Notes: a model not told the origin generated them from the sequence alone. Positions 13,591 through 58,779 are shown, counted from the stretch's first letter. The stretch is 64,000 nucleotides of DNA from Thermoanaerobaculia bacterium (GCA_963664405.1 OY761158.1:1920001-1984000); one strand, 5' to 3'. Numbers and translations are program-made.

Positions 13591-14208
13591 GTGACTCGCT
13601 CATCGAGTACAGAGATCAGTGGGGTGCTCGCGGCCATCCGCGCCGGCAACGAGGGTGCGGTGGATCGTCTGGTGCCCCTCGTCTACGACGAGCTGCGCAA
13701 GCTCGCCGGAACCTTCCTGGCCAACGAGCGTCCGGGACACACCCTCCAGCCCACGGCCCTCGTGCATGAGGCCTATCTGCGCCTCCTCGGCGACGGCCGG
13801 CCTCCGTGGAACGACAAAGCCCACTTCTTCCGAGCCGCGGGGCAGGCGATGCGCCGCATTCTCATCGAGCGAGCGAGAGCGCGGGCGCGCCACAAGCGCG
13901 GTGGCGACTGGCAGAGAGTTTCGCTCGACACAGCCATCGAAGGCGATCTTCCGCGGCCGGAGTCGCTCCTCGACCTCGATCGTGCTCTTTCGCGTCTGGC
14001 GAAAATCGACTCTTCCATGGCAGAAGTGGTCGAGTTGCGCTACTTCGCGGGACTGACAGTTGAGCAGATAGGGAACGCACTCGAGGTGTCGCCCCGCTCG
14101 GTACAGCGGCTGTGGACCGCAGCGCGTGCCTGGCTGCACGCCGAGCTCACACCCTCGGTGCGGCGCGACTCCGATGGCGCATCTCTCGCCGTTTCGTCGC
14201 TTGAGTAG
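13591..14208 (+). CDS. ECF sigma factor (TIGR02999/ECF43-like, kinase-associated), copy 1
   Basis: LVPLVYDELRKLA, HTLQPTALVHEAYLRL, AMRRILIERAR, VVELRYFAGLT, W..ARAWL. Confidence 0.93.
   Translation: MTRSSSTEISGVLAAIRAGNEGAVDRLVPLVYDELRKLAGTFLANERPGHTLQPTALVHEAYLRLLGDGRPPWNDKAHFFRAAGQAMRRILIERARARARHKRGGDWQRVSLDTAIEGDLPRPESLLDLDRALSRLAKIDSSMAEVVELRYFAGLTVEQIGNALEVSPRSVQRLWTAARAWLHAELTPSVRRDSDGASLAVSSLE
14175..14205 (+). promoter_or_regulatory. Putative ECF promoter TGGCG-N18-CGCTTGAG upstream of kinase 1
   Basis: Matches the bipartite motif found at five other sites. Confidence 0.55.
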
Positions 14209-14270
14209 ATAAAAGGGAGAGTGGTCACGGCGTAGCTAAGCCGGTCTCACCCACTCTCGACTCGACTCGA

Positions 14271-17200
14271 ATGACCGAGCCCATCGTCGACTGGCCACGG
14301 GTCTGGGAGCTCTTTCACCAGACTCTGGACCTGCCGCCGCAAGAGCGGCGATCTCTTGTCGAAGCGACTCGCGCCAGCGACCCGGGTCTGGCCACCGAGA
14401 TCGAGCGCCTGCTCGATAGCCACGAGACGAGTGGACTGCTCGATCAGCCTCTGCTGGTAGACGACGAGAGCGCGCCGGAGCCCGAAGCGGGTCTCGACCC
14501 AGGCCTGGTCCTCGCCGGCCGCTTCGAGGTCGTACGCGAGATCGCCAGGGGCGGCATCGGACGAGTCTACGAGGCCCGCGACCGCGAGCTCGACGCCCGC
14601 GTCGCGGTCAAGGTGCTGCGACCCTCGATCGCCGGCGACGCGAAATCGCGAGAACGCTTCCGCCGCGAAGTCCAGCTCGCCCGTCAGGTCACCCACCGAA
14701 ACGCCTGCCGGCTCTTCGACCTGGTGCATGACAAAGAGATCACTTTCCTGACCATGGAGTACCTCGATGGCGAGACGCTGGCGGATCGGCTACGCCAGCA
14801 CGGTCCGCTATCGACCCAAGAAGCGCTCTCGATCGCCAAGCAAGTAGCTGCAGCGCTCGATGCGGCTCATGCGGTCGGGGTCGTCCATCGTGACCTCAAA
14901 ACCGGCAACGTGATGTTGGTCGACGAAGCGGACGCAACACGGGCCGTGGTCACCGACTTCGGACTAGCAAAAGTATCTGGCGACCAGCTCGCACCGGCGC
15001 AGGCCGGCGGCGACCCCCACGGGCGCCTAACCGAGGCTGGGCAGGTGGTCGGCACTCCCGCCACCATGGCTCCAGAGCAGCTGGCAGGGGGCGAGATCAC
15101 ACCCGCCACCGACCTCTGGGCGTTCGGCATGCTGCTGCACGAGATTCGCACTGGGAGCCTGCCGGTGCGAACGACACCTGGTCCAGACGGAGGAGAGGGT
15201 ACGCCGCTGCCGTTGCAGGCTGAGCTGGATCGCCCCTGGCGAAATGCGATCGCGGCTTGCTTGGCGGCCGATCCCATCGATCGACCGCAGAGCGCCGGGC
15301 AAGTGCTCGCCATCCTTTCGGGCGAGGAGTTCGCATCGGGGAGAGCTCGCCCCGGCAAACGCTTCAGAGGTTTCCTTGCCACAGCGGCGGCGGCGGTTCT
15401 CCTGGCGACCCTCGGCGTCATGATCCAGAACAAAGTGCTGGCGCCGGGTCGCACGACCGACACGGCCCAGCAGGCTCTGTCTCTCGAACAGCCCGCCTTC
15501 GTCCTCATCGCCGACTTCGACAACAACACCGGCGAGGAGCTCTACGACGGGGCGATTGAAGCGGCACTGCGAGGCGAGCTCGACAGCTCGGGCTATGTGA
15601 ACGTCGCGACACCCTCTCTCGTTGCCGGAGCTCTGCGCCTGATGCGCCGCCCGCTCACAACGCCGATAGATCGCCGGGCAGCGCGGGAGATCTGCCTGCG
15701 CGACGGGGGCATCAAGGCATTTCTCATCGGTGACATTTCCCGGCAGGGCTCGGCCTTCGTCCTCAACGTCGACGTAGTCGAGCCGAACGAGGATGTCTCG
15801 ATCGCAAGTTTCACCGAAGAAGCCACCGAGGCAGAGCTCGAGACGGCGTTGGCCAGGCTATCCAGTCGTGTGAGCGAGGGCATAGGCGAGGAACTCGCCC
15901 AGATCCAGCTCAGCGACGCGAAACTGAGCCGAGTCACGACACCGTCGCTTCGCGCCCTCGGGCTCTACTCCGATGGAGACGCTGCCATGCGACGCGGGGC
16001 ACTCAACGCTGCTCAGCCCCTTCTTCGTGCCGCGATCGACGAGGACCCCGAGTTTGCATCGGCCTACAACCACCTCGCCTGGGCGCTCTTCAATGTGAAT
16101 GTGGGCGCTCACGCGGCTCTTACCACCCAGCTGACGCCCGAGACCCGCGGAGCCTGGGCCGAGACGATGGCCGAAGTGCAAACCTACTCCGATCGAGCTA
16201 TTGCGCTCGCACCTCTAGCAACCGAAGTCGAGCGCTACTTCATCCGCGGTAGCGATCTAAGTCGTCGAATTTCGGGCCTGGGCGCTGGAAGAAACGAGCT
16301 ATACAAAGAAGCAATAGGGCAATACGAAGCGACCCTCGAGCTGGAGCCCGACCACTTCTGGTCGGCCAGAAATCTAGGTGCTCTGGTCGGGGCTCCGATG
16401 ACCCAGGGCGGCTTTTCAGCCTGGACCTGGGGACCACAGGCATGGCGGCATGCGAGCCTCTACCCGAACGACCTAATTGCCAACATATCGGCCGCCAGCA
16501 GTTACGTGCAATTCGGATATCGTTCTCAAGCGCGTAAGCATGTGGCGCGGAGCCTCGAGCTCAGGCGAGAATCGCAATCCGGTCCAATCTTGGTGTGGGC
16601 CCGCTTCTTCTCGGTGCACGAAGCGTGGATGGCAGGTGACCTCGAACAGGTTCGCGCCGAATTGGAGCGCCTCGAGGGCGGTCGAGTGCCACCCGGCAGC
16701 GGGGACATGAAGCGCGACTATTTTGCTAACTGGTACCGAGCTCTGGGAGTGCAATGGAACGACTCGCGTTGGACCTCCGAGCTACTCCCGACCTCTCTCC
16801 GTTGGAGCCGAGGTACGGCTGCCTACTACAGGGGTGACCTGGACGATCTTCAGCTCGCCTTCGACGCCAGCTTCCTGGACTACTCTGGTATGAGTCTCGT
16901 CCTCGAGCCGGTAAGGATCTGCTACCTGGCACAGATCGGGCTGGTATGGGAGGCTCGACAGGCGCTGACGGAGCTTCAAGCGATCGAACACCTGTCCGGG
17001 GATCTGCCACACGGCTTCCCTATGCCGCCGCTCGGGCCCGTGCTCGAGGTCGTGGAGGGGCGGGTGCTGGCTGCTGAGGGAAAGGGAGGGCGGGCAATCT
17101 CGCTACTCGAGAATGCTCTCCCGCGTTTGCTCCAAAACAGCGGCACTTTGCGGGGCTATGGCGGTGCAGTTCCGAGTTACTTCGAGGGGGCGATGGGGCT

Positions 17201-17483
17201 CGCCGAGTCGTTGCGAGCCGAGGGGAGACTCGTAGAGGCTGTTCGCGCCCTGGAGAATGCCAGCGACCTCAGATTCCAGACCTATCCCCTCAGCGCCCCC
17301 GCTTGGATGTTTACCCAGACCGCGCTGGTCCGCGCCTACCGTCAGATGGGGTGGAAGGCGGAGGCCGCGACAGCCGAAGCCCAGCTTCGCGACCTCCTCC
17401 GCCTTGCGGAGCCGGACTTCGTCCTACTGCGCGAATTGGACGATCGCGAAGCCGAGAGCCTCCTCATCCCCAGCTTCGACTAA
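14271..17483 (+). CDS. Membrane Ser/Thr (Hanks) kinase with TolB_N-like and TPR extracytoplasmic region, copy 1
   Basis: ARGGIGRVY, VAVK, HRDLKTGN, DFGLA, GTPATMAPE, one TM helix, then IADFDNNTG and TPR-like repeats. Confidence 0.93.
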   Translation: MTEPIVDWPRVWELFHQTLDLPPQERRSLVEATRASDPGLATEIERLLDSHETSGLLDQPLLVDDESAPEPEAGLDPGLVLAGRFEVVREIARGGIGRVYEARDRELDARVAVKVLRPSIAGDAKSRERFRREVQLARQVTHRNACRLFDLVHDKEITFLTMEYLDGETLADRLRQHGPLSTQEALSIAKQVAAALDAAHAVGVVHRDLKTGNVMLVDEADATRAVVTDFGLAKVSGDQLAPAQAGGDPHGRLTEAGQVVGTPATMAPEQLAGGEITPATDLWAFGMLLHEIRTGSLPVRTTPGPDGGEGTPLPLQAELDRPWRNAIAACLAADPIDRPQSAGQVLAILSGEEFASGRARPGKRFRGFLATAAAAVLLATLGVMIQNKVLAPGRTTDTAQQALSLEQPAFVLIADFDNNTGEELYDGAIEAALRGELDSSGYVNVATPSLVAGALRLMRRPLTTPIDRRAAREICLRDGGIKAFLIGDISRQGSAFVLNVDVVEPNEDVSIASFTEEATEAELETALARLSSRVSEGIGEELAQIQLSDAKLSRVTTPSLRALGLYSDGDAAMRRGALNAAQPLLRAAIDEDPEFASAYNHLAWALFNVNVGAHAALTTQLTPETRGAWAETMAEVQTYSDRAIALAPLATEVERYFIRGSDLSRRISGLGAGRNELYKEAIGQYEATLELEPDHFWSARNLGALVGAPMTQGGFSAWTWGPQAWRHASLYPNDLIANISAASSYVQFGYRSQARKHVARSLELRRESQSGPILVWARFFSVHEAWMAGDLEQVRAELERLEGGRVPPGSGDMKRDYFANWYRALGVQWNDSRWTSELLPTSLRWSRGTAAYYRGDLDDLQLAFDASFLDYSGMSLVLEPVRICYLAQIGLVWEARQALTELQAIEHLSGDLPHGFPMPPLGPVLEVVEGRVLAAEGKGGRAISLLENALPRLLQNSGTLRGYGGAVPSYFEGAMGLAESLRAEGRLVEAVRALENASDLRFQTYPLSAPAWMFTQTALVRAYRQMGWKAEAATAEAQLRDLLRLAEPDFVLLRELDDREAESLLIPSFD

Positions 17484-17494
17484 GGGATGGCGGC

Positions 17495-18349
17495 TTAGGG
17501 CGTGCAAACGCCGTCGTTGTCACAGAGCACCCGCTTCACCCTGAGCTGAACGGGCATGTTGTACTCGCCCAGTTCCACCCCTTGCTTGCGAACGCTGACG
17601 ATACAGGCGTCAAAACAAGTCAGCGTCAGATCGTCGTCGCCGATTTCGGTGTCGGTGACAATCAAAGGCGAGAAGAAGGTCAGTGTCGTGACGATCTGCT
17701 GCCACTCGATCGCGGACTTCTTGCCTTTCTGATTCAGCGACGGGATCATGACCTCGAGCGTGGCCGGCCCGGCTGAGACCCCTTGCGGCAAGTCAAAGAT
17801 GCCTGTGCCGACGCGCAAGAGCGCTTCCACGTTGTCGACGCACGGATCCGGATTGGGCATGGGGACATAACCCACGACCTCGTCAGGGACCGATCCGTAG
17901 AACTCTGTGTCCAAATAGAGGCACGGACCACCTTCCAGGGGTCTGCTGAAGTCGAGCGTGAAGTGGCGGTTGTCTCCTGGTGGCAACCCATCGTTGAGGT
18001 TGGTAGAGCCGTCGTGGGTCTCAAACCAAAGCCCGTCCGGCCCGGTCAGACCGACAAAGACGTTTCCTCCCGGAGTACATTCGGGATCCCCTCCGTCAAG
18101 GGTCGTCCAGTAGTCGAAGAGGCCGTCACAAAGGGAGAGGGCCAGACCATCGCCTCTGATACCGGCTGAGGATCCATCGACCATGTCGCTGAAGACAGCG
18201 CGCTGAAATGCGGTCGACGAATTCCCCCCGCCGCCACGACCCTTTCCGCCTTTGGCGGCCGAAGCCGGCGTGACCGGCGCGAGTATCAGAACGGCCAGTC
18301 CCATTCCGCTGACAACCGCAAAGAGTCTGTTCTTTGCACATCGAGACAT
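17495..18349 (-). CDS. Secreted Cys-containing hypothetical protein, convergent on kinase 1
   Basis: GGAGG RBS, signal peptide ending ASA-A, Gly/Lys linker; blocks shared with 56001-56954. Confidence 0.75.
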   Translation of the reverse strand: MSRCAKNRLFAVVSGMGLAVLILAPVTPASAAKGGKGRGGGGNSSTAFQRAVFSDMVDGSSAGIRGDGLALSLCDGLFDYWTTLDGGDPECTPGGNVFVGLTGPDGLWFETHDGSTNLNDGLPPGDNRHFTLDFSRPLEGGPCLYLDTEFYGSVPDEVVGYVPMPNPDPCVDNVEALLRVGTGIFDLPQGVSAGPATLEVMIPSLNQKGKKSAIEWQQIVTTLTFFSPLIVTDTEIGDDDLTLTCFDACIVSVRKQGVELGEYNMPVQLRVKRVLCDNDGVCTP

Positions 18350-18402: not shown

Positions 18403-18433
18403 CTAAGGCGACGTTTCTTCTGCTACCGTGCCA
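18403..18433 (-). promoter_or_regulatory. Putative ECF promoter TGGCA-N18-CGCCTTAG
   Basis: About 55-60 bp upstream of the 18349 start; shared motif. Confidence 0.6.
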
Positions 18434-28633: not shown

Positions 28634-29203
28634 ATGGCGACCCCATCTCATCAGATCACTCAGATCCTCGACGCAATGGGTTCCGGCGACTCGGATGCCG
28701 CGGACAGGCTCCTTCCCCTCGTCTACGACGAGCTGCGCGGCATCGCCAGGGCCTTCATGGCGAAGGAGAAGCCCGGCCAGACTCTCCAGCCGACCGCTCT
28801 GGTTCACGAAGCCTACATCCGTCTCTTGGGTAAGGACGCTCCACGCTGGGACAACCGGGCCCACTTCTTCACCGCCGCCGCCGAGGCGATGCGCCGCATC
28901 CTGATCGAGAACGCGCGCCACAAGACGGCCCTCAAAAGGGGCGGCGACCAGCTGCGCATCACCCTCGGTGATGTCGCCGACGGAGAGTCCGCCCGCTTCG
29001 AGGAGTTGCTGGCCCTCGACGAGGCGCTCCAGCGGCTCGAGGAGAGAGACGCGGCGATGGCTCAGGTGGTCAAGCTGCGCTACTTCGCCGGGCTGACCGT
29101 CGAGGAGACGGCGAAAGCACTCGACACTTCCCCGCGTTCGGTCAACCGCCATTGGACGGCGGCGCGGGCCTGGCTGCGGAGAGAGTTGTCGAGCGCGAGC
29201 TAA
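28634..29203 (+). CDS. ECF sigma factor (TIGR02999/ECF43-like), copy 2
   Basis: LLPLVYDELR, QTLQPTALVHEAYIRL, VVKLRYFAGLT, HWTAARAWL. Confidence 0.93.
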   Translation: MATPSHQITQILDAMGSGDSDAADRLLPLVYDELRGIARAFMAKEKPGQTLQPTALVHEAYIRLLGKDAPRWDNRAHFFTAAAEAMRRILIENARHKTALKRGGDQLRITLGDVADGESARFEELLALDEALQRLEERDAAMAQVVKLRYFAGLTVEETAKALDTSPRSVNRHWTAARAWLRRELSSAS

Positions 29204-32659: not shown

Positions 32660-35600
32660 TCAGAAGCGAACGCCCGCCAACACCCGCATCGTGCGGGGGC
32701 GCTGGAAAGAGCGGCGCGAGCGACGTGGAGCACCGGTCCGGCTGTTGGTCGAGATCTGTTCCTGGCGGTTGATGACGTTGTAGGCCTCGACACGCAGCCA
32801 GCCCTCGAGCCCGGGTCGTCCCAACGGGAAAGCCCACGATCCGCTCAGGTTGATGGACCACCTATCACCGTTCTCGAGCGATCCTCTCGGCTCGAGAAAC
32901 GTGCGCAAGGCCTCGACGCTGTAGACCGTGTCGCTCCGATTCGTCGGAGGTCGAAACACGGTCAGGTCGTGGTTCCAGGGAGCTCCCGTCTGGTAGAAGA
33001 AGTTGCCGCCGATGCTGAGCTCGTGACCCCCACCCACGTCGAAGAGCTTGTACCCGTAGCTCTTGAAGATCAGGTCGCGACTCGTAGGCATGACGCCGTC
33101 ACGATGGATCGTCGAGACCGGCTCACCGACGTGGGGTCGCAGTAGCTCCCGGCAGCTGTCGTCGAGGTCGAGGCGCTCGCAGTCGAAATCATCGACGAGG
33201 TCTTCGGTGAGCAGGAACTCGAGGTTGCGGCCGTAATCGTCGTTGAGGTTGTTGGCGCTGCCGCCAGAAGTCTTGCCCTCGGCGCGGCCGAAGGTCAGAT
33301 TGTTGTAGAGAGCCCACCCCTTGGAGAAGCGCTTGTTGAGCTGGAGCTGAAGCGCACGGTAGCTACGGTTGTCGTCCTCGAAACTATCGAGGATCTCTTC
33401 CGCGCGCTCGCGAGTGCCAATACCGTTGGCGACGAAATTCTCTACCCAACCGAGCTCGCGAAGGATCGGGGCATAGTCGTCGTAGTTCTCGACCAGCTGA
33501 AAGAGCCCGAACTCCTCATTCCTCTGGATGGTCGAGCCGATCAGGTTGTCGAGGCGCCACCAGATTCCCTTGGCGTCGAAGATCCATCTCTTGCCTAGCT
33601 GCCACTCGTAGCCGAGCACGATCTCGTCGCGATGGTAGGGCTCGATGTCGATATCGACATTGAGATTCGGATCGTCGTGGATCTCCCACAGACCCCCGGG
33701 TCGGATCGAGCCGAGGAAGAAGCAGTAGGAGCCGTTGTCGAGATTGGTCGGAAAGCCGAACCCGGCGATTCGCTCGCAGGCCACGTCATCGGGAAAACGC
33801 CGCACGAAGCCCAGGGCGTTGATGTTGAGATAGAGGTCAACTGCGTTGCTCGCGCCGGTCCAGTCCTCCTGCAGGTTGGCGTTGACCAGATTCTGTGGCG
33901 TCTGGGTGAAGAGTCGGCCGACGCTGAGGCTCATCAGCCGACGGCCGTTGCCACCGAAGTCATAGACGACCGACAGTCGCGGAGACAGATCGCCGCTGTC
34001 GATGACGGTGCGACCACGATCGTTGGTCAGCCGCTGATCCTCCCACCGCAGCCCTAGATTGAAGACCCAGTGGTCGCCGACCTCGAAACGATCTCTCAGA
34101 TAGGCGCCGTAGTTGCGACCCCTGCTCGTCGCGCTGCCCTTGCCGGCCGCTACGACATCAGCAGGGTTGTAGTCGTTCAATGTGCAATTGCGTTCACAGC
34201 CGTCCTCGAAGCCGAACTCGGTCATCGCATCGAACTCGAACCCGGAGATGAGGTTGGGCCGCTGCACGTCCTGATCCCAATCCACCTGCTGCAAGTCGAG
34301 GCCATAACGCAGCTCGTGCCGAGCGAGAAACTGGGTCGCCGCGAAATTGACCTGGTCGCGAGGAAACTCGTTGGTTCCGTAGCCGAGTCCTAGACGCCAC
34401 CCGTTGTGCGTAGTGCTGTCGCACCGCTGGATATAGGCGTCATCATTGTTGACCGGCGAGAACTCTCCAAGGGCCGGGTCAGGAGCGAAGGCTGGGTCCT
34501 GCGCCTTCAGCTCGGGCGGGAAGGGGCGACTCCGATCCTCGTTCGAGGTCTGAGTCGCCGCTTTCGCCTCGAGGAAAAGATTCGTCCGCAACGTGCTGTT
34601 CCAGCTCAGCGAGGCGATGTCGCCTGAGAAGCCGAAGAAAGTGGCCGCATAGCGGTCATATGTGCTTGTTTGCACAAAGAGCCTGTCGGAGGGAGAGTCG
34701 ATCCAAGTGAGAGCCAAGGAGTGCCGCGCGGCTGGCTGGAGGTTCACCTTGGCCAAGGTTGTCTTCGTCTCTGTACTGACATCGAGCAAGCTTCCGTCGA
34801 GGATCTTGTCGAGCTGGTCGGTGGTCACGTCGGCCCGAGAGAAAAAGAACCAGGCCCGATCGCGAACGATGGGCCCGCCAAGATAACCCTCGAGGCTGTC
34901 GGAGCCACCGTCTCGCTCGCCTTCACCGAAGACCAGAAAGTCCGCCGCTTCCTGTTCTGGGTCGGTCTTCTCGTCTTCGGGTTGATCCTCGTTCATCTGT
35001 TCGAAAGACTCGACCAGACGCTCGTCCTCCGCCAGGGCGGGTTGGGAGTCGTAGTTCGAGTTCCACTTGTCGCGGGCGAAGACTCCCGTGGCCTCGCCGT
35101 GAAAGCGGTTACTGCCCGACTTCACGATCAGGTTGGTATGCGAGCCGACGTTGCGCCCGTACTCCGAGCCGGAGCCCCCGACCTGCATACTGATCTCTTC
35201 AACGGCCACGGTCGGGAAGAAGACGCGCGTGCCCCCTCCCCGCATCGAATAAGTCGCATCCACCCCATCGATATAGACACTCTGCTCCTGCCACAGTGCG
35301 CCGTTGACCGACGGCCTGATATAGCCGAGGTAGAGACTCTCGTCGTCCTGGGTAACGCCGGGGAGAAGGTCGATCGCGCCTAAGAACGAGCGATTGACTG
35401 CCGACACCTGGCCCGCGGTCTCGGCATCGATGCTCGCTCCCGCCACGATGTTGAACCTGTCTATCATCGGCGACTCGGCAGTCACGATGACGGTCTCGCT
35501 CGCGGTGACCTCTAGCTCCAAGTCGAGCTCTGCCGTGCCTCCGGCGGCAATCGAGATCCGACCCGCGGCAGTCGTGAAAGGCTCCATCGATGCTCGTACA

Positions 35601-35824
35601 ACGTAGCTGCCCGGAGGCAAGAGGCCGAAGCGGAAGAGACCGGTCTCATCTGCTCGCCGCTCATGAGCGCCTCTGTCGCCCTCCAGCACCACCAGTGCAC
35701 CCGCAATCGGGGCTCCCTCCCTCGTCGTAATCCTCCCCGACAGATTTCCTGTCTCAGGTCCATCGGCACGCAGTCCCACGGCCAGAAGACCCAGAAAAAG
35801 TCCCCATGCGAGCCATCCCTTCAT
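32660..35824 (-). CDS. TonB-dependent receptor (Oar-like, N-terminal carboxypeptidase-regulatory-like domain)
   Basis: Signal peptide, GLLPPGSYVV, ETVIVTAE, KSGSNRFHG, LGGPIVRDRAWFF, C-terminal GVRF. Confidence 0.9.
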   Translation of the reverse strand: MKGWLAWGLFLGLLAVGLRADGPETGNLSGRITTREGAPIAGALVVLEGDRGAHERRADETGLFRFGLLPPGSYVVRASMEPFTTAAGRISIAAGGTAELDLELEVTASETVIVTAESPMIDRFNIVAGASIDAETAGQVSAVNRSFLGAIDLLPGVTQDDESLYLGYIRPSVNGALWQEQSVYIDGVDATYSMRGGGTRVFFPTVAVEEISMQVGGSGSEYGRNVGSHTNLIVKSGSNRFHGEATGVFARDKWNSNYDSQPALAEDERLVESFEQMNEDQPEDEKTDPEQEAADFLVFGEGERDGGSDSLEGYLGGPIVRDRAWFFFSRADVTTDQLDKILDGSLLDVSTETKTTLAKVNLQPAARHSLALTWIDSPSDRLFVQTSTYDRYAATFFGFSGDIASLSWNSTLRTNLFLEAKAATQTSNEDRSRPFPPELKAQDPAFAPDPALGEFSPVNNDDAYIQRCDSTTHNGWRLGLGYGTNEFPRDQVNFAATQFLARHELRYGLDLQQVDWDQDVQRPNLISGFEFDAMTEFGFEDGCERNCTLNDYNPADVVAAGKGSATSRGRNYGAYLRDRFEVGDHWVFNLGLRWEDQRLTNDRGRTVIDSGDLSPRLSVVYDFGGNGRRLMSLSVGRLFTQTPQNLVNANLQEDWTGASNAVDLYLNINALGFVRRFPDDVACERIAGFGFPTNLDNGSYCFFLGSIRPGGLWEIHDDPNLNVDIDIEPYHRDEIVLGYEWQLGKRWIFDAKGIWWRLDNLIGSTIQRNEEFGLFQLVENYDDYAPILRELGWVENFVANGIGTRERAEEILDSFEDDNRSYRALQLQLNKRFSKGWALYNNLTFGRAEGKTSGGSANNLNDDYGRNLEFLLTEDLVDDFDCERLDLDDSCRELLRPHVGEPVSTIHRDGVMPTSRDLIFKSYGYKLFDVGGGHELSIGGNFFYQTGAPWNHDLTVFRPPTNRSDTVYSVEALRTFLEPRGSLENGDRWSINLSGSWAFPLGRPGLEGWLRVEAYNVINRQEQISTNSRTGAPRRSRRSFQRPRTMRVLAGVRF

Positions 35825-52251: not shown

Positions 52252-52836
52252 GTGAGAGATTCCAGCCCCCAGCAGGTCACCCTAATTCTGGAAGCGATCA
52301 ACGCGGGGGACGCAGCCGCAGAGGATCAACTGCTGCCCCTGGTTTACGACGAGCTGCGCAAGATCGCACGATCGCGGATGGCGCGGGAGCGGCCAGGGCA
52401 GACTCTTCAGCCCACCGCCCTGGTGCACGAGGCCTATCTTCGCCTCTTCGGAGGCGAGAAGCCCAGCTGGGAGAGTCGAGCTCACTTCTTCGGCGCCGCC
52501 GGCGAAGCCATGCGTCGCATTCTGATCGAACGAGCACGCAAAAAGGGTCGACTGATGCGAGGCGGCGACCGGCGCCGCGTCGAGCTCGACACTTCGGCGG
52601 GAAGAACCGAGCCGCCTTCGGATGAGGTTCTGGCACTCGACGAATCGCTCAGCGAGCTCGAGTCGATCGACTCCAAGATGGCACAGGTCGTGAAGCTACG
52701 CTACTTCGCCGGTCTTACCGTGGAGGAAACAGCGAGCGCCATGGCCAGCTCGCCGCGAACGGTCCACCGGCAGTCGGTCGCCGCTCGAGCGTGGTTACAG
52801 AGTAAGCTGTACCCCAGCGATCAACAAGGTCAGTAG
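52252..52836 (+). CDS. ECF sigma factor (TIGR02999/ECF43-like), copy 3
   Basis: LLPLVYDELRKIA, QTLQPTALVHEAYLRL, VVKLRYFAGLT. Confidence 0.93.
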   Translation: MRDSSPQQVTLILEAINAGDAAAEDQLLPLVYDELRKIARSRMARERPGQTLQPTALVHEAYLRLFGGEKPSWESRAHFFGAAGEAMRRILIERARKKGRLMRGGDRRRVELDTSAGRTEPPSDEVLALDESLSELESIDSKMAQVVKLRYFAGLTVEETASAMASSPRTVHRQSVAARAWLQSKLYPSDQQGQ

Positions 52837-52843: not shown

Positions 52844-55800
52844 ATGACAGAGAGATCCGATCCCCCGGGTCACTGGGGGCTAGTATGGGATCTGTTTCAC
52901 CGTGCCCTGGAAACCGGGTCCGAGGAGCGGGCCGCCTTCCTGACAGAAGCCTGTGGAGGGGACAAAGAGCTGCGATCGGAAGTCGAGAAGCTGTTGGCAG
53001 CTCATGAGCACGAGTCGCAGCTGCTTGACCTCCTGACCGAGCTCGCTCCGGAGGGGGACACCTCCAGGCCCACGGAGCTACCCGAGGTTCCCCCGGAGCA
53101 AGAGCTCGCGCCCGGCGCTGTTCTGGCGGATCGTTTCGAGATTGTCGGCCTCGTCGGCAGAGGCGGAATGGGAGCCGTCTACGAAGCTCAAGATCGTGAG
53201 CTGGGTGCGCGAGTGGCCCTAAAAACCCTGCTGGCAGCACTCTCTGGAAGCAGCGCCGCTCTGGACCGATTCCGGCGAGAGATCCAACTCGCCAAGCAGG
53301 TCACCCACCCCAATGTATGCCGGATCTACGATCTCTTTCGCGACCGTGAGGGCCTCTTCTTCCTGAGCATGGAGCTCCTGGAGGGGAAGACCCTGGCGCA
53401 GCACATCGCGGAGTCCGGCCCGCTCGATCTCGACGAAGCCCTGCCAATCGTCGAGCAGCTGGCAGCCGGGCTCGCTGCCGCCCACCAGGCCGGGGTCGTG
53501 CACCGCGATCTCAAGAGCTCGAACATCATGCTGATTCCCGAAGGCGGCGGCACACGGGCGGTGGTAACCGACTTCGGCCTGGCGCGGACAACAGGCTCAG
53601 CAGACGCCGAGACCGGACACCTCACCCGAAGCGGGGAAGTTCTCGGCACCCCGGCCTTCATGGCTCCCGAGCAACTGGAGGGAGGCGAGATCTCGCCGGC
53701 AACCGACGTCTACGCTTTCGGCGTCGTGCTCTTCGAGATGGTTACCGGGCGTCTGCCCTTCAGTGGCGTAACGCCCTATGCGGTGGTGGCGCAGCGCCTT
53801 CGGAACGAGCCACCGTCTCCCCGGGAGCACTCGCCCAATCTGGATCGGCGCTGGGAACGGGTGATCCTCCGCTGCCTGGAGTCTCGCCCCGCAGACCGAT
53901 TTCAGACTCCGGGCGCAATCGTTGCCGCGCTGCTTGGGGCCAAGGCCACCACTATCCCCTCCGATCGACGGCGCTTGGCCCGCCGCTCGGCTGTCGCAGC
54001 GATGGGTATGGCCGTTGTCTTCGGCGGGTTCTTCCTACTCCGTGGAGACGCAGACTCCGACGCTGCCGCCTCGGCCGAGGCCGACCAGGACTCCAGCGCG
54101 GCCCTTCCTTTCGCTGAGCGCGACGCGGTGCTGATCACCGCCTTCGAGAACAGGACCGGCGACGAGATCTTCGACGGCACTCTGGAAGGTGCACTGGCCC
54201 GACAGCTCGCCAACTCGACATTCGTCACCGTGGCGACCCTGCCGCGGATCCGCGACACCCTGGCCCTGATGGGCCTACCCGACAACGCCGAGGTCGATAC
54301 CTCTACCGGACGCGAGATCGCTCTGCGCGATGGCGGCATCCGCGCCTTGATCGGCGGCCGGATCGAGAAGCTCGGGCAAACATGGGTGCTGAGCGCCGAC
54401 TTGATCGACGCAAGCGATGGTCGGGTGGTGGCGAGTCTCGAGGAAGAGGCGCCGCACATGGAGGAGGTTCTCGGTGCAATTCGTCGTCTCGCCAGCGGAA
54501 TGAGAGAGCTCCTCGGCGAAGAGATCGACGAGATTCGCGAAAGCGAAGAAGAGCTGGCAAGGGTCGCCACGCCGTCTCTCAGGGCCCTACGCCTCTATAC
54601 CGAGGCCGACGCGCTCGTCGCCCGCATCGACAACGCCGCCTCAGAAGAGCTTCTTCGCCAGGCCATTGAGCTGGATCCGGACTTTGCATCGGCTCACATT
54701 TTGCTCGCCTATGCCATTGGCAACCAGGGTCGCCCCCAAGAAGAGCTCTTTCCGCATGCGGAGCGGGCCTTCGAGCTCGCCGGGCAAGCACCGGAGCGGG
54801 AGCGCTACTTCATCCGTGCCAGTTATTTCCAAATGTCAGGAGAATGGGAGAAGGCGCGAGCCAACTACGAGGCCCTCTTACGCGTCGACCCCTATCACTT
54901 CTGGGGCAACAGCAACATGGCGCGCTCCTTGTCTCGAGGCCCCCGCCGCGAAGATGCGCCCGCTTACTGGGTTCGCCGGGCGCGTGGGCGACCGAACGAC
55001 CTCGACGCCAACTTCGATGCCGGCTACGCGTTGGAGATGATCGCCGAGAGCCCCGAAGCGGCCCGGCCTTACCTTCGCCGCGTCGTTGACCTCGCCGTCG
55101 ACCCCAATAGCCCGTTGCAGCAGCGCAACGGGTTCGAGATCTCCTGGGCTCGCCTACATCCGGCCCACGAGCACTGGGTTGGCAACGACGCCGAGGGAAT
55201 GCTACGAGAGCTGGATCGCGTGGCGGAGGAGCTGTCGCAGCTATCGCCTGGCCTCGAGGCGGCATTTCTGTCAGCCGTGCTGCGCTCGGGGTATCGCAGC
55301 CTCGGCTTCCGCAACCGTCCCCCGGCGCTTAGACCCATCAGCCGCACCGGGAGCTTCTGGGGCGGAATCGACGCTTATTACCGGGGCGATCTAGCGGAGG
55401 TCAAGAGACAACTCGGCGAAGCTCGAAGCCGCCTCGTCTGGGCCGGCGCCCTCATCCAGGAACCGCCCCGTATCCTCGCCCTGGTGCGTGCCGGCTTCTT
55501 AGCGGAGGCCCGGGCAGGCCTCGCCTCTTTCGAGCTCCGCGAAGAGACTTCGGTCCCCGACGGCTACCCGGCGCGCAACACCGTGACCGATGTCATGAAG
55601 GGCCATGTAGCCCTCGCCGAGGGCCGGGTGCAGGAGGCCCTAGCACTGCTGCAGAGTGCGCTCACCGCGGGGCCAGAACCGGGCGGGACCAGCTACTTTG
55701 TGGCGGCGTCGGGCCTCGCCTCGGCGTGGCTGGAGCTCGGCGAGCCCGCTCGCGCCTTGGCAGCCCTCGAAGAGTCGTCGCGGCAGAAGCGGCGCAGCCA

Positions 55801-55981
55801 TCCCTACGCCAGGGAGACCTGGATGGCCAACCAGCTCCGCCTCGCCTCTCTCTATCGCGAGCTGGGAAGAGCGAGCGACGCGCAGGGCGTCGAAGACGAG
55901 CTGCGCGCGATGCTGGCCTATGCCGATCCCGACTTCTGGCTCGTTCAGCAGCTGGCGGCGAACAGCCAACCCGCCCCCTGA
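52844..55981 (+). CDS. Membrane Ser/Thr kinase with TPR region, copy 3
   Basis: GRGGMGAVY, HRDLKSSN, DFGLA, GTPAFMAPE; same architecture as copies 1 and 2. Confidence 0.93.
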   Translation: MTERSDPPGHWGLVWDLFHRALETGSEERAAFLTEACGGDKELRSEVEKLLAAHEHESQLLDLLTELAPEGDTSRPTELPEVPPEQELAPGAVLADRFEIVGLVGRGGMGAVYEAQDRELGARVALKTLLAALSGSSAALDRFRREIQLAKQVTHPNVCRIYDLFRDREGLFFLSMELLEGKTLAQHIAESGPLDLDEALPIVEQLAAGLAAAHQAGVVHRDLKSSNIMLIPEGGGTRAVVTDFGLARTTGSADAETGHLTRSGEVLGTPAFMAPEQLEGGEISPATDVYAFGVVLFEMVTGRLPFSGVTPYAVVAQRLRNEPPSPREHSPNLDRRWERVILRCLESRPADRFQTPGAIVAALLGAKATTIPSDRRRLARRSAVAAMGMAVVFGGFFLLRGDADSDAAASAEADQDSSAALPFAERDAVLITAFENRTGDEIFDGTLEGALARQLANSTFVTVATLPRIRDTLALMGLPDNAEVDTSTGREIALRDGGIRALIGGRIEKLGQTWVLSADLIDASDGRVVASLEEEAPHMEEVLGAIRRLASGMRELLGEEIDEIRESEEELARVATPSLRALRLYTEADALVARIDNAASEELLRQAIELDPDFASAHILLAYAIGNQGRPQEELFPHAERAFELAGQAPERERYFIRASYFQMSGEWEKARANYEALLRVDPYHFWGNSNMARSLSRGPRREDAPAYWVRRARGRPNDLDANFDAGYALEMIAESPEAARPYLRRVVDLAVDPNSPLQQRNGFEISWARLHPAHEHWVGNDAEGMLRELDRVAEELSQLSPGLEAAFLSAVLRSGYRSLGFRNRPPALRPISRTGSFWGGIDAYYRGDLAEVKRQLGEARSRLVWAGALIQEPPRILALVRAGFLAEARAGLASFELREETSVPDGYPARNTVTDVMKGHVALAEGRVQEALALLQSALTAGPEPGGTSYFVAASGLASAWLELGEPARALAALEESSRQKRRSHPYARETWMANQLRLASLYRELGRASDAQGVEDELRAMLAYADPDFWLVQQLAANSQPAP

Positions 55982-56000
55982 TCTCAAAGACGGACACGGT

Positions 56001-56954
56001 CTAGGCGTCGGGGGTGCCGTCACAATCGTTGTCGAGCCCGTCGCGGCCCCATCTGCCTTTGGAGTCCTGATGGCCCGGATAGATCCGGGAGTTGCCGTCG
56101 TCGCAGTCGTCTCCTCCCGTTGCAATCGAGCAGTGACCGTCGGCATCCGCGTCGGTGCAACCGGCACCTCCGCCGCCGCCATCGCCCCCATCGACCGTGC
56201 TCACTCTCTGTAGCCGGATCGCCATCGGTAGGTACCATCTGCCTATGACCGCGTTATCCGACGCCCGCACCACCTCGGCCTCCGAGACGTCGACTTTTCC
56301 GTCGCACGACTCGGTCTGCAACAGCCGCCAATTGTCGTCATCCGCGTGGAGAGGGTCCTGGCAGATGTAGAGAGGGTTCACATGATCGATGTCGGCCTTG
56401 GGAGTAAAGCCGCCGACCTCGTTCCACAGCTTGAAGCGGCGCAGTGTCTGACGAGTGGCGCCGGCCTTGAAGACGCGATCGGCACTGATATCGACCTGAG
56501 CAAAGCAGTCGGTCGCACAGTTGCAAGTGTCGCCCCCCAGCTCGCCTCCCAAGCTCAGCGCCGCCAGGGCTGAGCAGCCGGCCCCGCCATCGGCGGAGTC
56601 GGAGAAGTCGAATCCAATCGCCCGCATGAACGACTTCGAGAAATATCTGGTAGCGAGCTTCCAACGCCCGCCCCCCGAGACCGTGCTGAAACCGGTGGTC
56701 GAGAGAGTTGGCGTGCAGACGTCGCGGGCGTCGGCGTAGTCGAAGTCGGTGCCTTCGCAGGTGAGAGGGTCGTCGGCACTTACGCTCAGATTGGCATCGG
56801 CGCCGAAGACACCGCCACTGAGCGCGTTTGCCGCTTCGTGCAGAAAATCCACCCTCACCAGCACTGACTCCTGCTGAGCAGCCATCGGTAGGGCGCTCCA
56901 GCCCACGAGCAAACCCAAGTGGATGGCGAGCAAGATCGTTTTTCGCAACGTCAT
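56001..56954 (-). CDS. Secreted Cys-rich hypothetical protein with C-terminal acidic metal-binding (MopE-related-like) repeat, convergent on kinase 3
   Basis: AGGAGG RBS, signal peptide, DADADGH..DCDD..IYPG..DGLDNDCDG. Confidence 0.8.
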   Translation of the reverse strand: MTLRKTILLAIHLGLLVGWSALPMAAQQESVLVRVDFLHEAANALSGGVFGADANLSVSADDPLTCEGTDFDYADARDVCTPTLSTTGFSTVSGGGRWKLATRYFSKSFMRAIGFDFSDSADGGAGCSALAALSLGGELGGDTCNCATDCFAQVDISADRVFKAGATRQTLRRFKLWNEVGGFTPKADIDHVNPLYICQDPLHADDDNWRLLQTESCDGKVDVSEAEVVRASDNAVIGRWYLPMAIRLQRVSTVDGGDGGGGGAGCTDADADGHCSIATGGDDCDDGNSRIYPGHQDSKGRWGRDGLDNDCDGTPDA

Positions 56955-57015
56955 GGAGACCTCCTTGGAAAACTAGACTTCCCTGTGAGTGGGTGAAGTC
57001 TGGTGTGCATGTCTC

Positions 57016-57046
57016 CTAGTGCGCCATCCGATCAAGAATCCTGCCA
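57016..57046 (-). promoter_or_regulatory. Putative ECF promoter TGGCA-N18-CGCACTAG
   Basis: About 65 bp upstream of the 56954 start; closely resembles the 58750 site. Confidence 0.65.
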
Positions 57047-57181
57047 CCGGAACGGCGTATTGACGTGCCGCAGTCAAATCTGGAGAGGATGACAGTCATC
57101 ATCGATGACCTGCGAGGGCTGGGACTTGACCGGCCCTCGGCCTTCGCACGACACTTTTTTCATAGCCCGAGAGGACCCGAG

Positions 57182-58688
57182 CTACTTCTGTTCAAGACAA
57201 GTCGCCCATGCATTCATGATGACGGGCGTGGCGGTGCCGTTGCCGTATCCGAGTTTCGTCGCCTGTATCTGCCAGCCACTACCTAGGGGAGATGAGCCCC
57301 AGATAACGATCGGTGTGAAGAGAGGGAGTGGCGCGGCTATCTGCCCACCGCCTCCGAGGACGGCCGTCCCGCCGGGGCACGCTACTTCGCAATAACCAAA
57401 ACCGAATGGAGCGATGCTCACCCGGCACTCTCTCCTTACACGGCTGATCGTCCCCAGACCGCTGGGGCCCGTCGCCCCTTCAGGGCCCGGCGGGCCTTGA
57501 AGACCGGAGACGCCCTGCAGGCCCTGGGGGCCCTGGGGACCTGATGGCCCGGCTTGCCCCGGTGGACCCTGCAGCCCGCGCGCGGGCCCTCGGGTCCCGA
57601 GGGTCCCACGGGCCCGGAAGGTCCCTGAAGACCGGGTGAGCCTTGAGGCCCGGAGGCTCCCGGAGGGCCGGTGGGTCCCTGCAATCCCTGCGGTCCACGC
57701 GGGGCACTGAACTCCACCCACCGGCCCGATTGGTAAGGCGGCGTCGTCAGAGGATCGACGCCGCCTCCCCGGTAAATCCACATGCTGGCCACGTCGGGGT
57801 CCGTAGTGGAGCGGTCGAATACGTAATCGTTCGGCGCATAGGGCGGGATCGGGCTTGGCTCCCATTCGCCACGATTGTCGAGCCCCGAGCCCGCTGGACC
57901 CTCCGGTCCCGACAGTCCTTGGGGTCCCGGCGGCCCAACCGCACCCAGAGTGCCCTGCAGGCCGGAGTCCCCTGCGGTCCGGGCGGGCCTTGCAGACCAC
58001 GCGTACCTTGCAGGCCGGACGTCCCCTCCGGCCCGGACGGCCCGGGCAGACCCGGCTGACCTTGTAGGCCCTGGGTCCCCTGCGGTCCAGAGGATCCGAT
58101 CGGACCGGGGGGTCCCAGCGGACCTTGCGGGCCCGGCGGTCCTCCAGCCGGGCCCTCCGGCCCCTCGGGCCCCGGCGGCCCTTGCGCACCCTCGGGTCCA
58201 GGTGGTCCCTCCAGCCCCTCTGGGCCGACAGGTCTGACCGCGCCGAGCGTGAGATCGTACTCGTCGTACCCCCTGTGCGAGGCGCTGGTCTCCACCGAGA
58301 ACAGAAAGTCGCCGGTCGGGCAGATCCCGCCGGGGCATGCAGCCACGATCTCGTAGGCCGACGCGAAGCAGACATTCAACGGACCTTGATCGCCCAGGAC
58401 CACCAAGGGCGGGTCGCCGTTGTCGAAGCCGATGCCTGCGATCAGCAAGACCTGGTCGCCAGCCATGCACGGACCGAGCGGCGAAGCCAGGCCGAGGAGG
58501 TCGGTGTGGACCTCGCTGATGAAGAGATCAACCGTGGCGGGGTTGTTGCCGCTGTTCTGGCCGGAGACGGCAGTCGGTGCAGTCAGGCCCAGCCCGACAA
58601 GCAGAGCTGCGCAGGGGATCGATACGCGAACCCTCGCCAAAATCCCTCCTGCTCGGAGAACTGCCAAAACCGCTTTCTGCGACCTCAT
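57182..58688 (-). pseudogene. Exported collagen-like (Gly-X-Y) protein with two apparent frameshifts (near 57965 and 57585)
   Basis: Signal peptide and GPQG/GPPG runs that continue across three frames; C-terminal CPGGTAVLGGG..AWATC domain. Confidence 0.8.
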
Positions 58689-58749
58689 GGTGACCTCCTC
58701 GGATAGGGCAGACCTCCGAAAATATGAGGAGGGCTGGCGCGCATGTCTT

Positions 58750-58779
58750 CTAATGCGCCGTCCGATGAAAAACCTGCCA
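58750..58779 (-). promoter_or_regulatory. Putative ECF promoter TGGCA-N17-CGCATTAG
   Basis: About 65 bp upstream of the collagen-like gene start. Confidence 0.65.

What the first reader, a model, noticed from the sequence alone, without database searches (positions are those of the whole stretch)
13591..58779. Repeated three-part cassette: ECF sigma + TPR receptor kinase + convergent exported target gene, linked by a shared promoter motif
Seen: three cassettes (13591-18349, 28634-35824, 52252-56954) share the layout sigma -> kinase -> <- exported protein. The kinases share N-terminal, kinase and TolB_N-like parts and differ most in the distal TPR region. Known: ECF43-type sigmas (Vibrio EcfP, Xanthomonas EcfK) are activated by kinase phosphorylation of a region-2.2 Thr instead of by anti-sigma release. 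All three sigmas here carry LQPTALVHEAY and have no anti-sigma neighbour. Inference: each cassette is a sensor-switch-output module whose output gene sits tail-to-tail with the kinase. The outputs are swappable (secreted protein, TonB receptor, collagen-like protein). The secreted product could itself be the ligand of the TPR ectodomain.
Basis: partly seen in the sequence, partly recalled or inferred. Interest (0 to 1): 0.85.

Follow-up and report, generated by a model that had tools for sequence, protein, structure and literature searches.

The report
Three ECF43-type sigma/receptor-kinase gene cassettes
Three copies of a known bacterial switch (a sigma factor turned on by a membrane receptor kinase) lie in this window, and two of them sit next to related genes for an unstudied secreted protein that may be their target.

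Summary
The three cassettes are real, at the stated coordinates. Each has a PF07638/TIGR02999 sigma with the uncharged QPTA motif (TLQPTALVHEAY), then a single-pass Ser/Thr receptor kinase with a TPR ectodomain. This is the published ECF43 architecture (EcfP/PknT, EcfK/PknS). The "third part" is only partly supported. In 58 sigma-kinase pairs from other genomes, the next gene is convergent in 23 (40%; background 35%) and of mixed type. So the layout is not a family property. Locally there is more. The convergent genes of cassettes 1 and 3 are distant homologues in one rare, uncharacterised family of ~300-aa exported proteins. They abut the kinases (gaps of 11 and 19 nt). Both, plus the neighbouring collagen-like gene, carry GGCA[GC]G-N15/16-CGC[AC][CT]TAG 54-62 nt upstream of the start codon. 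The TonB receptor of cassette 2 lacks the motif, lies beyond a strong hairpin, and faces a sugar-oxidation cluster, so it is probably a chance neighbour. No sigma gene carries the motif. An IS21-family element sits 1 nt upstream of sigma 1. Verdict: new members of a known kind, with a plausible, unproven lineage-specific three-gene module.

The parts
13591..14208 (+). Sigma 1, ECF43-type (205 aa), QPTA motif in region 2.2
   Evidence: PF07638 E 5e-61, TIGR02999 212.8 bits against a 126 cut-off; alignment
14271..17483 (+). Receptor Ser/Thr kinase 1 (1070 aa): N-terminal extension, Hanks kinase domain, one hydrophobic segment near residue 367, conserved membrane-proximal domain, TPR region
   Evidence: Pkinase E 1e-41 and TPR hits; alignment; hydrophobic segment
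17495..18349 (-). out1: exported Cys-rich protein (284 aa), tail-to-tail with kinase 1 (11-nt gap); distant member of the out3 family
   Evidence: Translation with a signal-peptide-like N-terminus; no Pfam or NCBIfam hit; homology chain
18403..18432 (-). Candidate promoter motif GGCACG-N16-CGCCTTAG, 54 nt upstream of the out1 ATG
10195..13584 (+). IS21-family element (istA 10891-12462, istB 12413-13222, extra ORF 13219-13575), inserted 1 nt upstream of the sigma 1 GTG. It separates sigma 1 from its original upstream DNA (9968-10194).
   Evidence: Pfam rve/Mu-transpos_C_2 and IstB_IS21; 40-nt terminal inverted repeats; 5-bp target duplication ACTTA at 10190-10194 and 13585-13589
28634..29203 (+). 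Sigma 2, ECF43-type (189 aa)
   Evidence: PF07638 E 5e-64, TIGR02999 221 bits
29308..32481 (+). Receptor Ser/Thr kinase 2 (1057 aa from ATG 29308; ATG 29299 is also possible; the 29152 TTG ORF start overlaps sigma 2)
   Evidence: a 1057-aa form is listed from the same 6.78-Mb contig (P0177)
32528..32562 (.). 14-bp GC-rich hairpin in the 178-nt gap between kinase 2 and the TonB receptor gene; likely terminator, with a U-run on the minus-strand side
   Evidence: Fold (z -2.1; 4 of 200 shuffles fold as well). The simple terminator scan did not list it.
32660..35824 (-). TonB-dependent receptor with CarboxypepD_reg, Plug and barrel domains, convergent to kinase 2. It has no motif. It is divergent from the 36127-41229 cluster of oxidoreductase, 3-keto-disaccharide hydrolase, monooxygenase and MFS transporter genes.
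52252..52836 (+). Sigma 3, ECF43-type (194 aa)
   Evidence: PF07638 E 3e-60, TIGR02999 205 bits
52844..55981 (+). Receptor Ser/Thr kinase 3 (1045 aa)
56001..56954 (-). out3: exported protein (317 aa) of an uncharacterised family with a C-terminal MopE-like Cys/Asp motif; tail-to-tail with kinase 3 (19-nt gap)
57007..57048 (-). Candidate promoter block; the core GGCAGG-N16-CGCACTAG (57016-57045) ends 62 nt upstream of the out3 ATG
57182..58688 (-). Collagen-like exported protein gene, readable only through two frame changes (near 57961 and 57580). It is either a pseudogene or an assembly error.
58750..58778 (-). Candidate promoter motif GGCAGG-N15-CGCATTAG, 62 nt upstream of the collagen-like gene ATG. 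It matches the out3 block at 21 of 24 positions in the best ungapped window.

Best explanation
The window is probably from an Acidobacteriota chromosome of the class Thermoanaerobaculia. It holds three paralogous two-gene signalling units of the known ECF43 kind.

How each unit likely works:
- The sigma factor has lost the acidic region-2.2 patch that binds RNA polymerase (Q-P-T-A instead). By analogy with EcfP it is inferred to be inactive on its own.
- The next gene encodes a single-pass receptor Ser/Thr kinase. Its large periplasmic part, a conserved membrane-proximal domain plus a TPR solenoid, senses an envelope or extracellular signal.
- Inferred sequence of events: the signal activates the kinase, the kinase phosphorylates the sigma on the QPTA threonine (possibly also in the sigma-2/sigma-4 linker), and the sigma then binds core polymerase and transcribes its targets.

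Shown here: the domain architecture, the motif, the gene order and the paralogy.

Inferred targets:
- In units 1 and 3, the targets include the gene lying tail-to-tail with the kinase. These two genes encode distant homologues of one rare, uncharacterised family of exported proteins.
- Together with the adjacent collagen-like gene, they carry the same ECF-like bipartite motif (GGCA[GC]G, 15-16 nt, CGC[AC][CT]TAG) about 55-60 nt upstream of the start codon.
- Units 1 and 3 are therefore copies of a three-gene block that was duplicated long ago.
- The TonB receptor next to unit 2 is most likely an unrelated neighbour that belongs to the divergent sugar-oxidation cluster.

The three-part layout is local to this lineage. 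It is not a feature of ECF43 pairs in general.
For: ECF43 assignment:
- PF07638 and TIGR02999 hits for 3 of 3 sigmas.
- TLQPTALVHEAY is invariant.
- In related loci, 61 of 62 sigmas with a recognisable motif have Thr at the same place and none has D/E; QPTA occurs in 18 of the 62.
- Kinase at +1 in 3 of 3. HRD, DFG and APE/SPE motifs are present in the alignment. One strong hydrophobic segment per kinase. TPR hits.
- Published description of ECF43: kinase at +1, one TM helix in 87.8%, extracytoplasmic TPR, DAED replaced by S/T (supplement passages of PMC7826278). Mechanism passages in PMC8999054 and PMC13147305.

Outputs:
- hhalign of the out3 family against the out1 pair gives 182 columns over nearly the full length, E 9e-5, probability 59%.
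- The out3 profile finds bridge proteins library-wide: P0064 at 8e-18, P0086 at 9.5e-16, P0160 at 2.3e-12.
- With Z set to 1.84e9, the out1 pair hits P0160 at 3.6e-6 and P0064 at 5e-5. The 27-sequence profile hits out1 at 1.1e-5 over residues 17-280.
- Gaps to the kinases are 11 and 19 nt.
- The motif has 3 sites at 14 of 14 defined positions, none at 13 and 18 at 12. All 3 are intergenic, on the correct strand, 54-62 nt from the ATG.
- The out1 site is a 2-mismatch match to the pattern taken from the other two sites. About 1 such match per spacing is expected in the whole window.
- No sigma-70-like promoter was found by the simple scan in 55800-59000 or 17300-18800.

TonB receptor as bystander:
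- No motif, a hairpin in the gap, and a divergent catabolic cluster next door.
Against: - Nothing shows transcription or phosphorylation.
- The motif pattern was defined from the same three sites it counts. The out3 and collagen copies may be one recent duplication. The out1 site alone has a chance probability of roughly 0.005-0.05.
- The motif is absent from 1.25 Mb of related loci. It differs from the promoter predicted for proteobacterial ECF43, which has GTC in -35 and CAG in -10.
- No sigma gene carries the motif, so there is no autoregulation to tie it to these sigmas.
- Sigma 1 and sigma 3 would share one promoter type, which argues against insulated modules.
- The out1-out3 homology is remote. 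The direct out3-clade profile gives out1 only 12.9 bits, and P0023 reaches only E 2.4.
- The shared adjacency may be inherited from a single duplication, so it counts as one observation.
- No family member lies in any of the 80 related loci.
- In the closest outside relative, L003 (sigma 68% identical to sigma 2), the order is kinase then sigma, with a Kelch/FG-GAP gene convergent.
- By identity, cassettes 2 and 3 are the closest pair, so cassette 2 must have lost an out gene under this model.
- For EcfK, T51A is still functional and the linker residue T106 matters, so the QPTA threonine may not be the only switch.
Confidence: 0.5

Rival explanations
1. There are two-gene ECF43 units only. All three convergent genes are unrelated neighbours, the sigma regulons lie elsewhere in the genome, and the upstream motif is a leftover of local duplication or a coincidence.
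For: The family-wide survey shows no preference for a convergent or exported next gene. 23 of 58 next genes are convergent against a 35% background. Signal-peptide-like N-termini occur in 8 of 19 convergent and 10 of 30 co-directional next genes, against a 36% background. The Pfam types of the next genes are heterogeneous. The motif is absent from related loci and from the sigma genes. The closest relative, L003, has a different arrangement.
Against: Two members of a very rare family, with only a few dozen core matches among 1.84e9 representatives, both abut paralogous kinases at 11 and 19 nt. Non-coding similarity would not survive the divergence seen in the proteins (about 22-25% identity) unless it were under selection.
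Confidence: 0.3
2. The shared upstream block is the site of another factor, not of these ECF sigmas. Candidates are a sigma-54 promoter (the GGCA[CG]G part resembles a -24 element) or an operator for a transcription factor that co-regulates secreted proteins.
For: The out3 site fits TGGCANG-N4-TTGCW with 1 mismatch (the consensus is recalled, not taken from a tool). The out3 and collagen conservation runs about 45-50 nt, which is longer than a minimal promoter.
Against: The out1 and collagen sites do not fit the sigma-54 pattern within 2 mismatches, and the pattern is not enriched (12 found, 21 expected). No Sigma54_activat protein appears among the window's ORFs scanned. The spacing (hexamer, 15-16 nt, CGC...) and the distance to the ATG fit ECF-type promoter geometry, which is established knowledge of ECF promoters.
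Confidence: 0.1
3. All three cassettes are insulated sensor-switch-output modules with swappable outputs, and the secreted output binds the TPR ectodomain of its own kinase as a feedback ligand.
For: The layout holds for 3 of 3 cassettes. The distal TPR is among the most divergent parts of the kinases. The outputs are exported.
Against: Outputs 1 and 3 are homologous rather than swapped. The TonB receptor lacks the motif and sits behind a hairpin. One motif type serves cassettes 1 and 3, so the modules are not insulated at the promoter level. There is no family-wide layout.
Confidence: 0.07

Closest known systems
EcfK/PknS of Xanthomonas citri (ECF43 sigma plus Hanks-type receptor kinase)
   Same: The sigma is followed by a transmembrane kinase with an N-terminal extension of about 80 aa, a kinase domain, one TM helix and periplasmic TPRs. 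The sigma-2.2 acidic motif is replaced by a Q-x-T-A type motif. There is no anti-sigma. (Passages of PMC13147305.)
   Different: The ectodomain here is about 640 aa (a conserved membrane-proximal domain plus a long TPR solenoid), against three TPRs in the 833-aa PknS. The known EcfK target is a T6SS cluster. Here there is no T6SS and the candidate targets are small secreted proteins. The phylum is different. There are three paralogous pairs within 45 kb.
EcfP/PknT of Vibrio parahaemolyticus
   Same: It is an intrinsically inactive ECF43 sigma activated by threonine phosphorylation in region 2.2. EcfP has STTA and the sigmas here have QPTA, with Thr at the same place. (Passages of the review PMC8999054. 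The original paper, Iyer et al. 2020, was not in the library and was not read.)
   Different: Its signal (polymyxin stress) and regulon are unrelated to anything seen here. Phosphorylation was not tested here.
TIGR04510 'putative peptide modification system cyclase' and TPR sensor proteins of Acidobacteriota
   Same: The ectodomain of all three kinases matches TIGR04510 over 200-520 residues (E 8e-37 to 1e-47, below its cut-off). The same ectodomain recurs at 35-47% identity fused to Trans_reg_C, to BTAD or to no recognised domain.
   Different: Here it is fused to a Hanks kinase that is paired with a sigma. There is no cyclase domain.

Membership tests
ECF43 sigma factors | Single Pfam Sigma70_ECF (PF07638) / TIGR02999 domain | tested here: met
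   3 of 3; E 3e-60 to 5e-64; TIGR02999 scores of 205-221 bits against a 126 cut-off. In the supplement of PMC7826278 only ECF43 is described with this Pfam domain.
ECF43 sigma factors | Acidic DAED/DxxD patch of region 2.2 replaced by an uncharged S/T motif with a conserved Thr (QTTA consensus) | tested here: met
   QPTA in 3 of 3. The same position is Thr in 61 of 62 related sigmas.
ECF43 sigma factors | Ser/Thr protein kinase gene at +1 and no anti-sigma factor | tested here: met
   3 of 3. No anti-sigma Pfam family appears among the neighbouring ORFs.
ECF43 sigma factors | Activity depends on phosphorylation by the cognate kinase | not testable with these tools
   This needs kinase assays or phosphomimetic reporters.
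ECF43 sigma factors | Assignment by the ECF classification HMMs (ECF Hub) | not tested
   No such library is on hand. Casas-Pastor et al. list their ECF43 as Proteobacteria only, with a later expansion to more than 900 members.
Hanks-type receptor kinases of the PknS type | Catalytic motifs (VAxK lysine, HRD, DFG, APE), one TM helix, extracytoplasmic TPRs, N-terminal extension | tested here: met
   Alignment, Pfam Pkinase and TPR hits, hydrophobic segments. The N-terminal extension is shared by 55 of 60 sigma-adjacent kinases in related loci.
   No TolB_N hit at E<=10 for 3 of 3 segments.
Sigma-54 promoter | GG at -24 and GC at -12 with fixed spacing (TGGCAC-N5-TTGCW, recalled) | tested here: not met
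   Only 1 of the 3 motif sites fits within 2 mismatches.
IS21 family insertion sequence | istA (rve) and istB (IstB_IS21) genes, terminal inverted repeats, short target duplication | tested here: met
TonB-dependent receptor | Plug domain plus a 22-strand barrel; here with a CarboxypepD_reg N-terminal domain | tested here: met
   OMP_b-brl_4 at 9e-19, CarboxypepD_reg at 2e-14, TonB_dep_Rec_b-barrel at 5e-10, Plug at 0.0016 (below its cut-off).

The most novel reading that the evidence does not exclude
Cassettes 1 and 3 are copies of a lineage-specific three-gene circuit. An ECF43-type sigma and its TPR receptor kinase are paired with a convergently encoded secreted protein of a new family. That protein is both the transcriptional output, through the shared GGCA[GC]G-N16-CGCxxTAG promoter, and a ligand or modulator of the kinase's TPR ectodomain. 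The result would be an autocrine feedback loop that also controls a collagen-like surface protein.
Probability: 0.07. Interest if true: 0.75.

Novelty: new member of a known kind. Interest (0 to 1): 0.35.

Why it matters
The targets and signals of kinase-activated ECF43 sigmas are known for only two or three proteobacterial cases. For the large expansions of this family in Acidobacteriota and Planctomycetota, nothing on signals or regulons came up in my searches. If the out1/out3 genes and the motif are real targets, they would give a first candidate promoter and regulon for an acidobacterial member. They would also give a defined reporter for finding what the TPR ectodomain senses. If they are not, the finding is three ordinary paralogues of a described system.

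Tried and rejected
- Motif discovery upstream of the sigma genes in related loci: exact 5-mer pairs occurred in at most 4 of 67 sequences, so no conserved autoregulatory promoter was found. The reverse-strand control in that script was meaningless.
- Pairwise 24-nt comparisons of the window's upstream regions: only out3 against collagen stood out, at 21 of 24.
- Search for the motif in the 80 related loci: 0 strict hits.
- Sigma-54 reading of the motif: rejected.
- Rfam scan of the whole window at gathering thresholds: 0 matches.
- Sigma-70 and terminator scans around the sigma starts and the junctions: uninformative.
- Direct BLASTP of out1 against out3: not significant, E 0.18.
- PDB sequence search and Pfam scan with the out family: no core match.
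- Matching contig lengths of out3 homologues to those of ectodomain relatives, to infer co-location: no match among the 120 listed of 248 hits. This is weak evidence.
- L002, an Acidobacteriota chromosome: its kinase is split over several frames and its downstream genes differ (PQQ_2 propeller, another kinase).
The neighbours of the out-family homologues therefore stayed unchecked.
- The original paper of Iyer et al. 2020 was not in the library.

Full report
**What is there**

ORF listing and a GC3 filter with Pfam and NCBIfam scans give a clear map. Three sigma genes (13591-14208, 28634-29203, 52252-52836) match PF07638 (E 3e-60 to 5e-64) and TIGR02999 above its cut-off.

Each sigma is followed on the same strand by a 1045-1070 aa protein. 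These proteins have a Hanks kinase domain, one strongly hydrophobic segment and TPR hits: 14271-17483, 29308-32481 and 52844-55981. For kinase 2, the TTG at 29152 overlaps sigma 2; ATGs at 29299 and 29308 fit the alignment, and a 1057-aa form is on record from the same contig.

Each kinase is followed by a convergent gene with a signal-peptide-like N-terminus:
- out1, 284 aa, no family hit.
- A CarboxypepD_reg/Plug/barrel TonB-dependent receptor, starting at ATG 35824.
- out3, 317 aa, with only a C-terminal MopE-like motif.

**Sigmas and kinases**

The sigmas are 57-61% identical, and TLQPTALVHEAY is invariant. The kinases align end to end at 38-48% identity. By region, identity is:
- 50-60% in the kinase domain
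- 41-55% in the membrane-proximal ectodomain part
- 35-41% in the proximal TPR
- 29-41% in the distal TPR
- 28-40% in the linker/TM region
- 36-43% in the N-terminal extension

The statement 'differ most distally' is therefore roughly right. The label TolB_N-like is not supported by Pfam, although the region matches TIGR04510.

The same ectodomain occurs at 35-47% identity in proteins named from Thermoanaerobaculia and Acidobacteriota. There it is fused to a kinase, to Trans_reg_C, to BTAD or to nothing recognised. One further paralogue comes from the window's own 6.78-Mb contig.

**Comparison with what is known**

The supplement of Casas-Pastor et al. (PMC7826278; passages only) describes ECF43 as follows:
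- It is the group with the Sigma70_ECF Pfam domain.
- A kinase lies at +1, with one TM helix (87.8%) and extracytoplasmic TPRs.
- DAED is replaced by S/T.

Passages of PMC8999054 and PMC13147305 describe the activation of EcfP and EcfK by phosphorylation. They report a QTTA consensus with Thr conserved in 88% of members, an 83-aa N-terminal extension in PknS, and a second important phosphosite in the EcfK linker.

The window's pairs meet every sequence-level criterion (see the membership table). In the related loci, 61 of 62 sigmas with a recognisable motif have the Thr, and QPTA occurs in 18 of the 62. Also, 55 of 60 adjacent kinases share the N-terminal extension.

**Is the third part a family property?**

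One scan of genome contigs with the sigma alignment returned 590 relatives, of which the best 80 loci were kept. Their best-segment identity to the query (sigma 1) in the scan table is 46-57%; by BLASTP the L003 sigma is 68% identical to sigma 2. They come from Acidobacteriota, Planctomycetota, Verrucomicrobiota and other phyla.

I called genes with my own simple caller, so some calls are wrong. L002, for example, has a kinase split over several frames.

First tally:
- A sigma ORF was recognised in 66 of the 80 loci.
- 49 sigma-kinase pairs had a next ORF of at least 120 aa, and 19 of these were convergent (39%), against a background of 36% in the same loci.
- Signal-peptide-like N-termini were found in 8 of 19 convergent and 10 of 30 co-directional next genes, against a background of 319 of 892.

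Second tally, homology-guided:
- 76 of the 80 loci were covered. L003, L031, L040 and L079 dropped out because the sigma ORF was not selected.
- 58 pairs had a next gene, and 23 of these were convergent (40%), against a background of 35%.
- With the kinase at least 700 aa and the next gene at least 150 aa, 15 of 34 were convergent.
- In 2 loci the kinase itself is convergent to the sigma. In 4 loci no kinase was found.

A Pfam scan of the 49 next genes gave no family for 19. The rest were a mixture: DapB, PanB, pyruvate carboxylase, acyl-CoA dehydrogenase, methyltransferase, histidine kinases, flagellin, MFS, WD40, CDP-alcohol phosphatidyltransferase, one CarboxypepD_reg TonB receptor (L037) and others.

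**What is special locally**

- out3 has five full-length homologues at 40-57% identity. out1 has one, at 56%.
- A profile of the out3 group searched against 1.84 billion representatives found about a dozen full-length relatives and a further dozen core-only relatives. Most of the 1079 hits match only the C-terminal MopE-like motif.
- Three of the core-only hits (P0064, P0086, P0160) also match out1.
- With E-values scaled to the whole library, the out3 clade reaches these bridges at 1e-13 to 1e-19. The out1 pair reaches P0160 at 3.6e-6 and P0064 at 5e-5. The 27-sequence profile reaches out1 at 1.1e-5 over residues 17-280.
- The direct out3-clade profile does not reach out1 (12.9 bits), and P0023 scores only E 2.4.
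- hhalign aligns the two groups over 182 columns (E 9e-5, probability 59%).

I conclude that out1 and out3 are distant members of one rare, uncharacterised family of exported proteins (no Pfam or PDB match to the core). Both abut their kinases, at 11 and 19 nt.

No other member lies in the window or in the 80 loci.

**The motif**

- Upstream of out3 and of the collagen-like gene there is a block of about 45 nt that is nearly identical: 21 of 24 in the best ungapped window, at the same distance from the ATG.
- Its core, GGCAGG-N15/16-CGCA[CT]TAG, recurs with two changes upstream of out1 as GGCACG-N16-CGCCTTAG.
- The combined pattern has 3 hits in the window against 0.14 expected. This count is circular, because the pattern came from these sites.
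- With the pattern taken from out3 and collagen only, at up to 2 mismatches, about 1 hit per spacing is expected in the whole window. That makes the out1 site a chance event of roughly 0.5-5%.
- In a position count, the three sites score 14 of 14, none scores 13 and 18 score 12.
- The three sites end 54, 62 and 62 nt before the ATG.
- The geometry (a hexamer, 15-16 nt, then a CG-rich -10) is that of ECF promoters, which is established knowledge.
- The motif is absent upstream of the TonB receptor and of the three sigma genes, and absent from 1.25 Mb of related loci.
- It differs from the proteobacterial ECF43 prediction, which has GTC in -35 and CAG in -10.
- A sigma-54 reading fits only one of the three sites.

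**Cassette 2**

The 178-nt gap between kinase 2 and the TonB receptor holds a 14-bp GC hairpin (z -2.1). The junctions of cassettes 1 and 3 show no notable structure.

The receptor shares its upstream region with a divergent cluster of a GFO/IDH/MocA oxidoreductase, a 3-keto-disaccharide hydrolase, a luciferase-like monooxygenase and an MFS transporter. It fits better as the uptake component of that cluster.

**Relations among the cassettes**

In a tree of 67 sigmas, the window's three fall in one small clade with L001, L002 and L004 (support 93/96). The order within the clade is not resolved.

By identity, sigmas 2 and 3 and kinases 2 and 3 are the closest pairs. If the ancestor had an out gene, cassette 2 lost it.

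L003, from a Thermoanaerobaculia MAG, holds the closest outside pair: its sigma is 68% and 65% identical to sigmas 2 and 3, and its kinase is 46% identical to kinase 3. There the kinase precedes the sigma, and a Kelch/FG-GAP gene is convergent. The arrangement is therefore not fixed even among near relatives.

**Other points bearing on function**

An IS21-family element (10195-13584) has terminal inverted repeats and a 5-bp duplication, ACTTA. It ends 6 nt before the sigma 1 GTG, and only 1 nt lies between the duplicated target and the start codon. Sigma 1 has thus lost its native upstream region (9968-10194). It can now only be transcribed from within or through the element, whose genes point the same way.

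The collagen-like gene needs two frame changes, near 57961 and 57580. This may be decay or an assembly error.

**Verdict**

The core of the finding is three new members of the described ECF43 sigma/receptor-kinase system. The proposed three-part module is not general. A local version, covering cassettes 1 and 3 with out-family genes and a shared candidate promoter, is plausible and testable but unproven. The ligand-feedback idea remains pure speculation, because the tools that could have probed it were unavailable.

Noticed in passing
window 10195-13584: A complete IS21-family element with istA, istB and a third 118-aa ORF, 40-nt imperfect terminal inverted repeats and the 5-bp target duplication ACTTA. 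It is inserted 1 nt upstream of the sigma 1 start codon and is co-directional with sigma 1.
   Followed up: yes
window 57182-58688 (-): A collagen-like (GXY repeat) exported protein gene that reads through only with two frame changes, near 57961 and 57580. It is either a pseudogene or carries indel errors in a GC-rich repeat.
   Followed up: partly
kinase residues 1-85 (window 14271-14525, 29308-29560, 52844-53100) and related loci: The N-terminal extension before the kinase domain (consensus about W..W.LF..AL.L...ER..FL....GD..L..EVE.LL..HE) is shared by 55 of 60 sigma-adjacent kinases from several phyla. It has no Pfam family. It could be the part that docks the sigma.
   Followed up: partly
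window 9990-10016 and 10129-10155: A 27-nt inverted repeat (89% complementary, arms 112 nt apart) in the original upstream region of sigma 1, just left of the IS21 element.
   Followed up: no
window 20678-21557 versus 24775-25210: A degenerate partial second copy (85-89% identity over 139 and 300 nt) of the 3' part of the AMP-binding enzyme gene 20167-21633. The two copies flank a 677-aa membrane/TPR protein gene (21778-23811, -).
   Followed up: partly
window 18679-19231, 26657-27318, 27381-28054: Probable toxin-antitoxin pairs: a BrnA/CopG-like antitoxin at 18956-19231 with a small upstream ORF, and two PIN-domain genes, one of them with a Phd/YefM-like antitoxin.
   Followed up: no
window 38534-38563 (+): A weaker motif-like site, GACAGG-N16-CGCCTTAT (12 of 14 positions). 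It is intergenic and lies 57 nt upstream of the luciferase-like monooxygenase gene (38620), in the cluster next to cassette 2. It is within chance expectation.
   Followed up: no
L003 1-6456: The closest outside relative has the order kinase then sigma, the reverse of the usual order. A Cys-rich ORF lies upstream and a convergent Kelch/FG-GAP repeat protein lies downstream.
   Followed up: partly
window 47140-49499 (+): An fn3-containing ORF (47140-48183) and a Laminin_G_3 ORF (47895-49499) overlap by about 290 nt in different frames. This may be one gene split by a frameshift.
   Followed up: no
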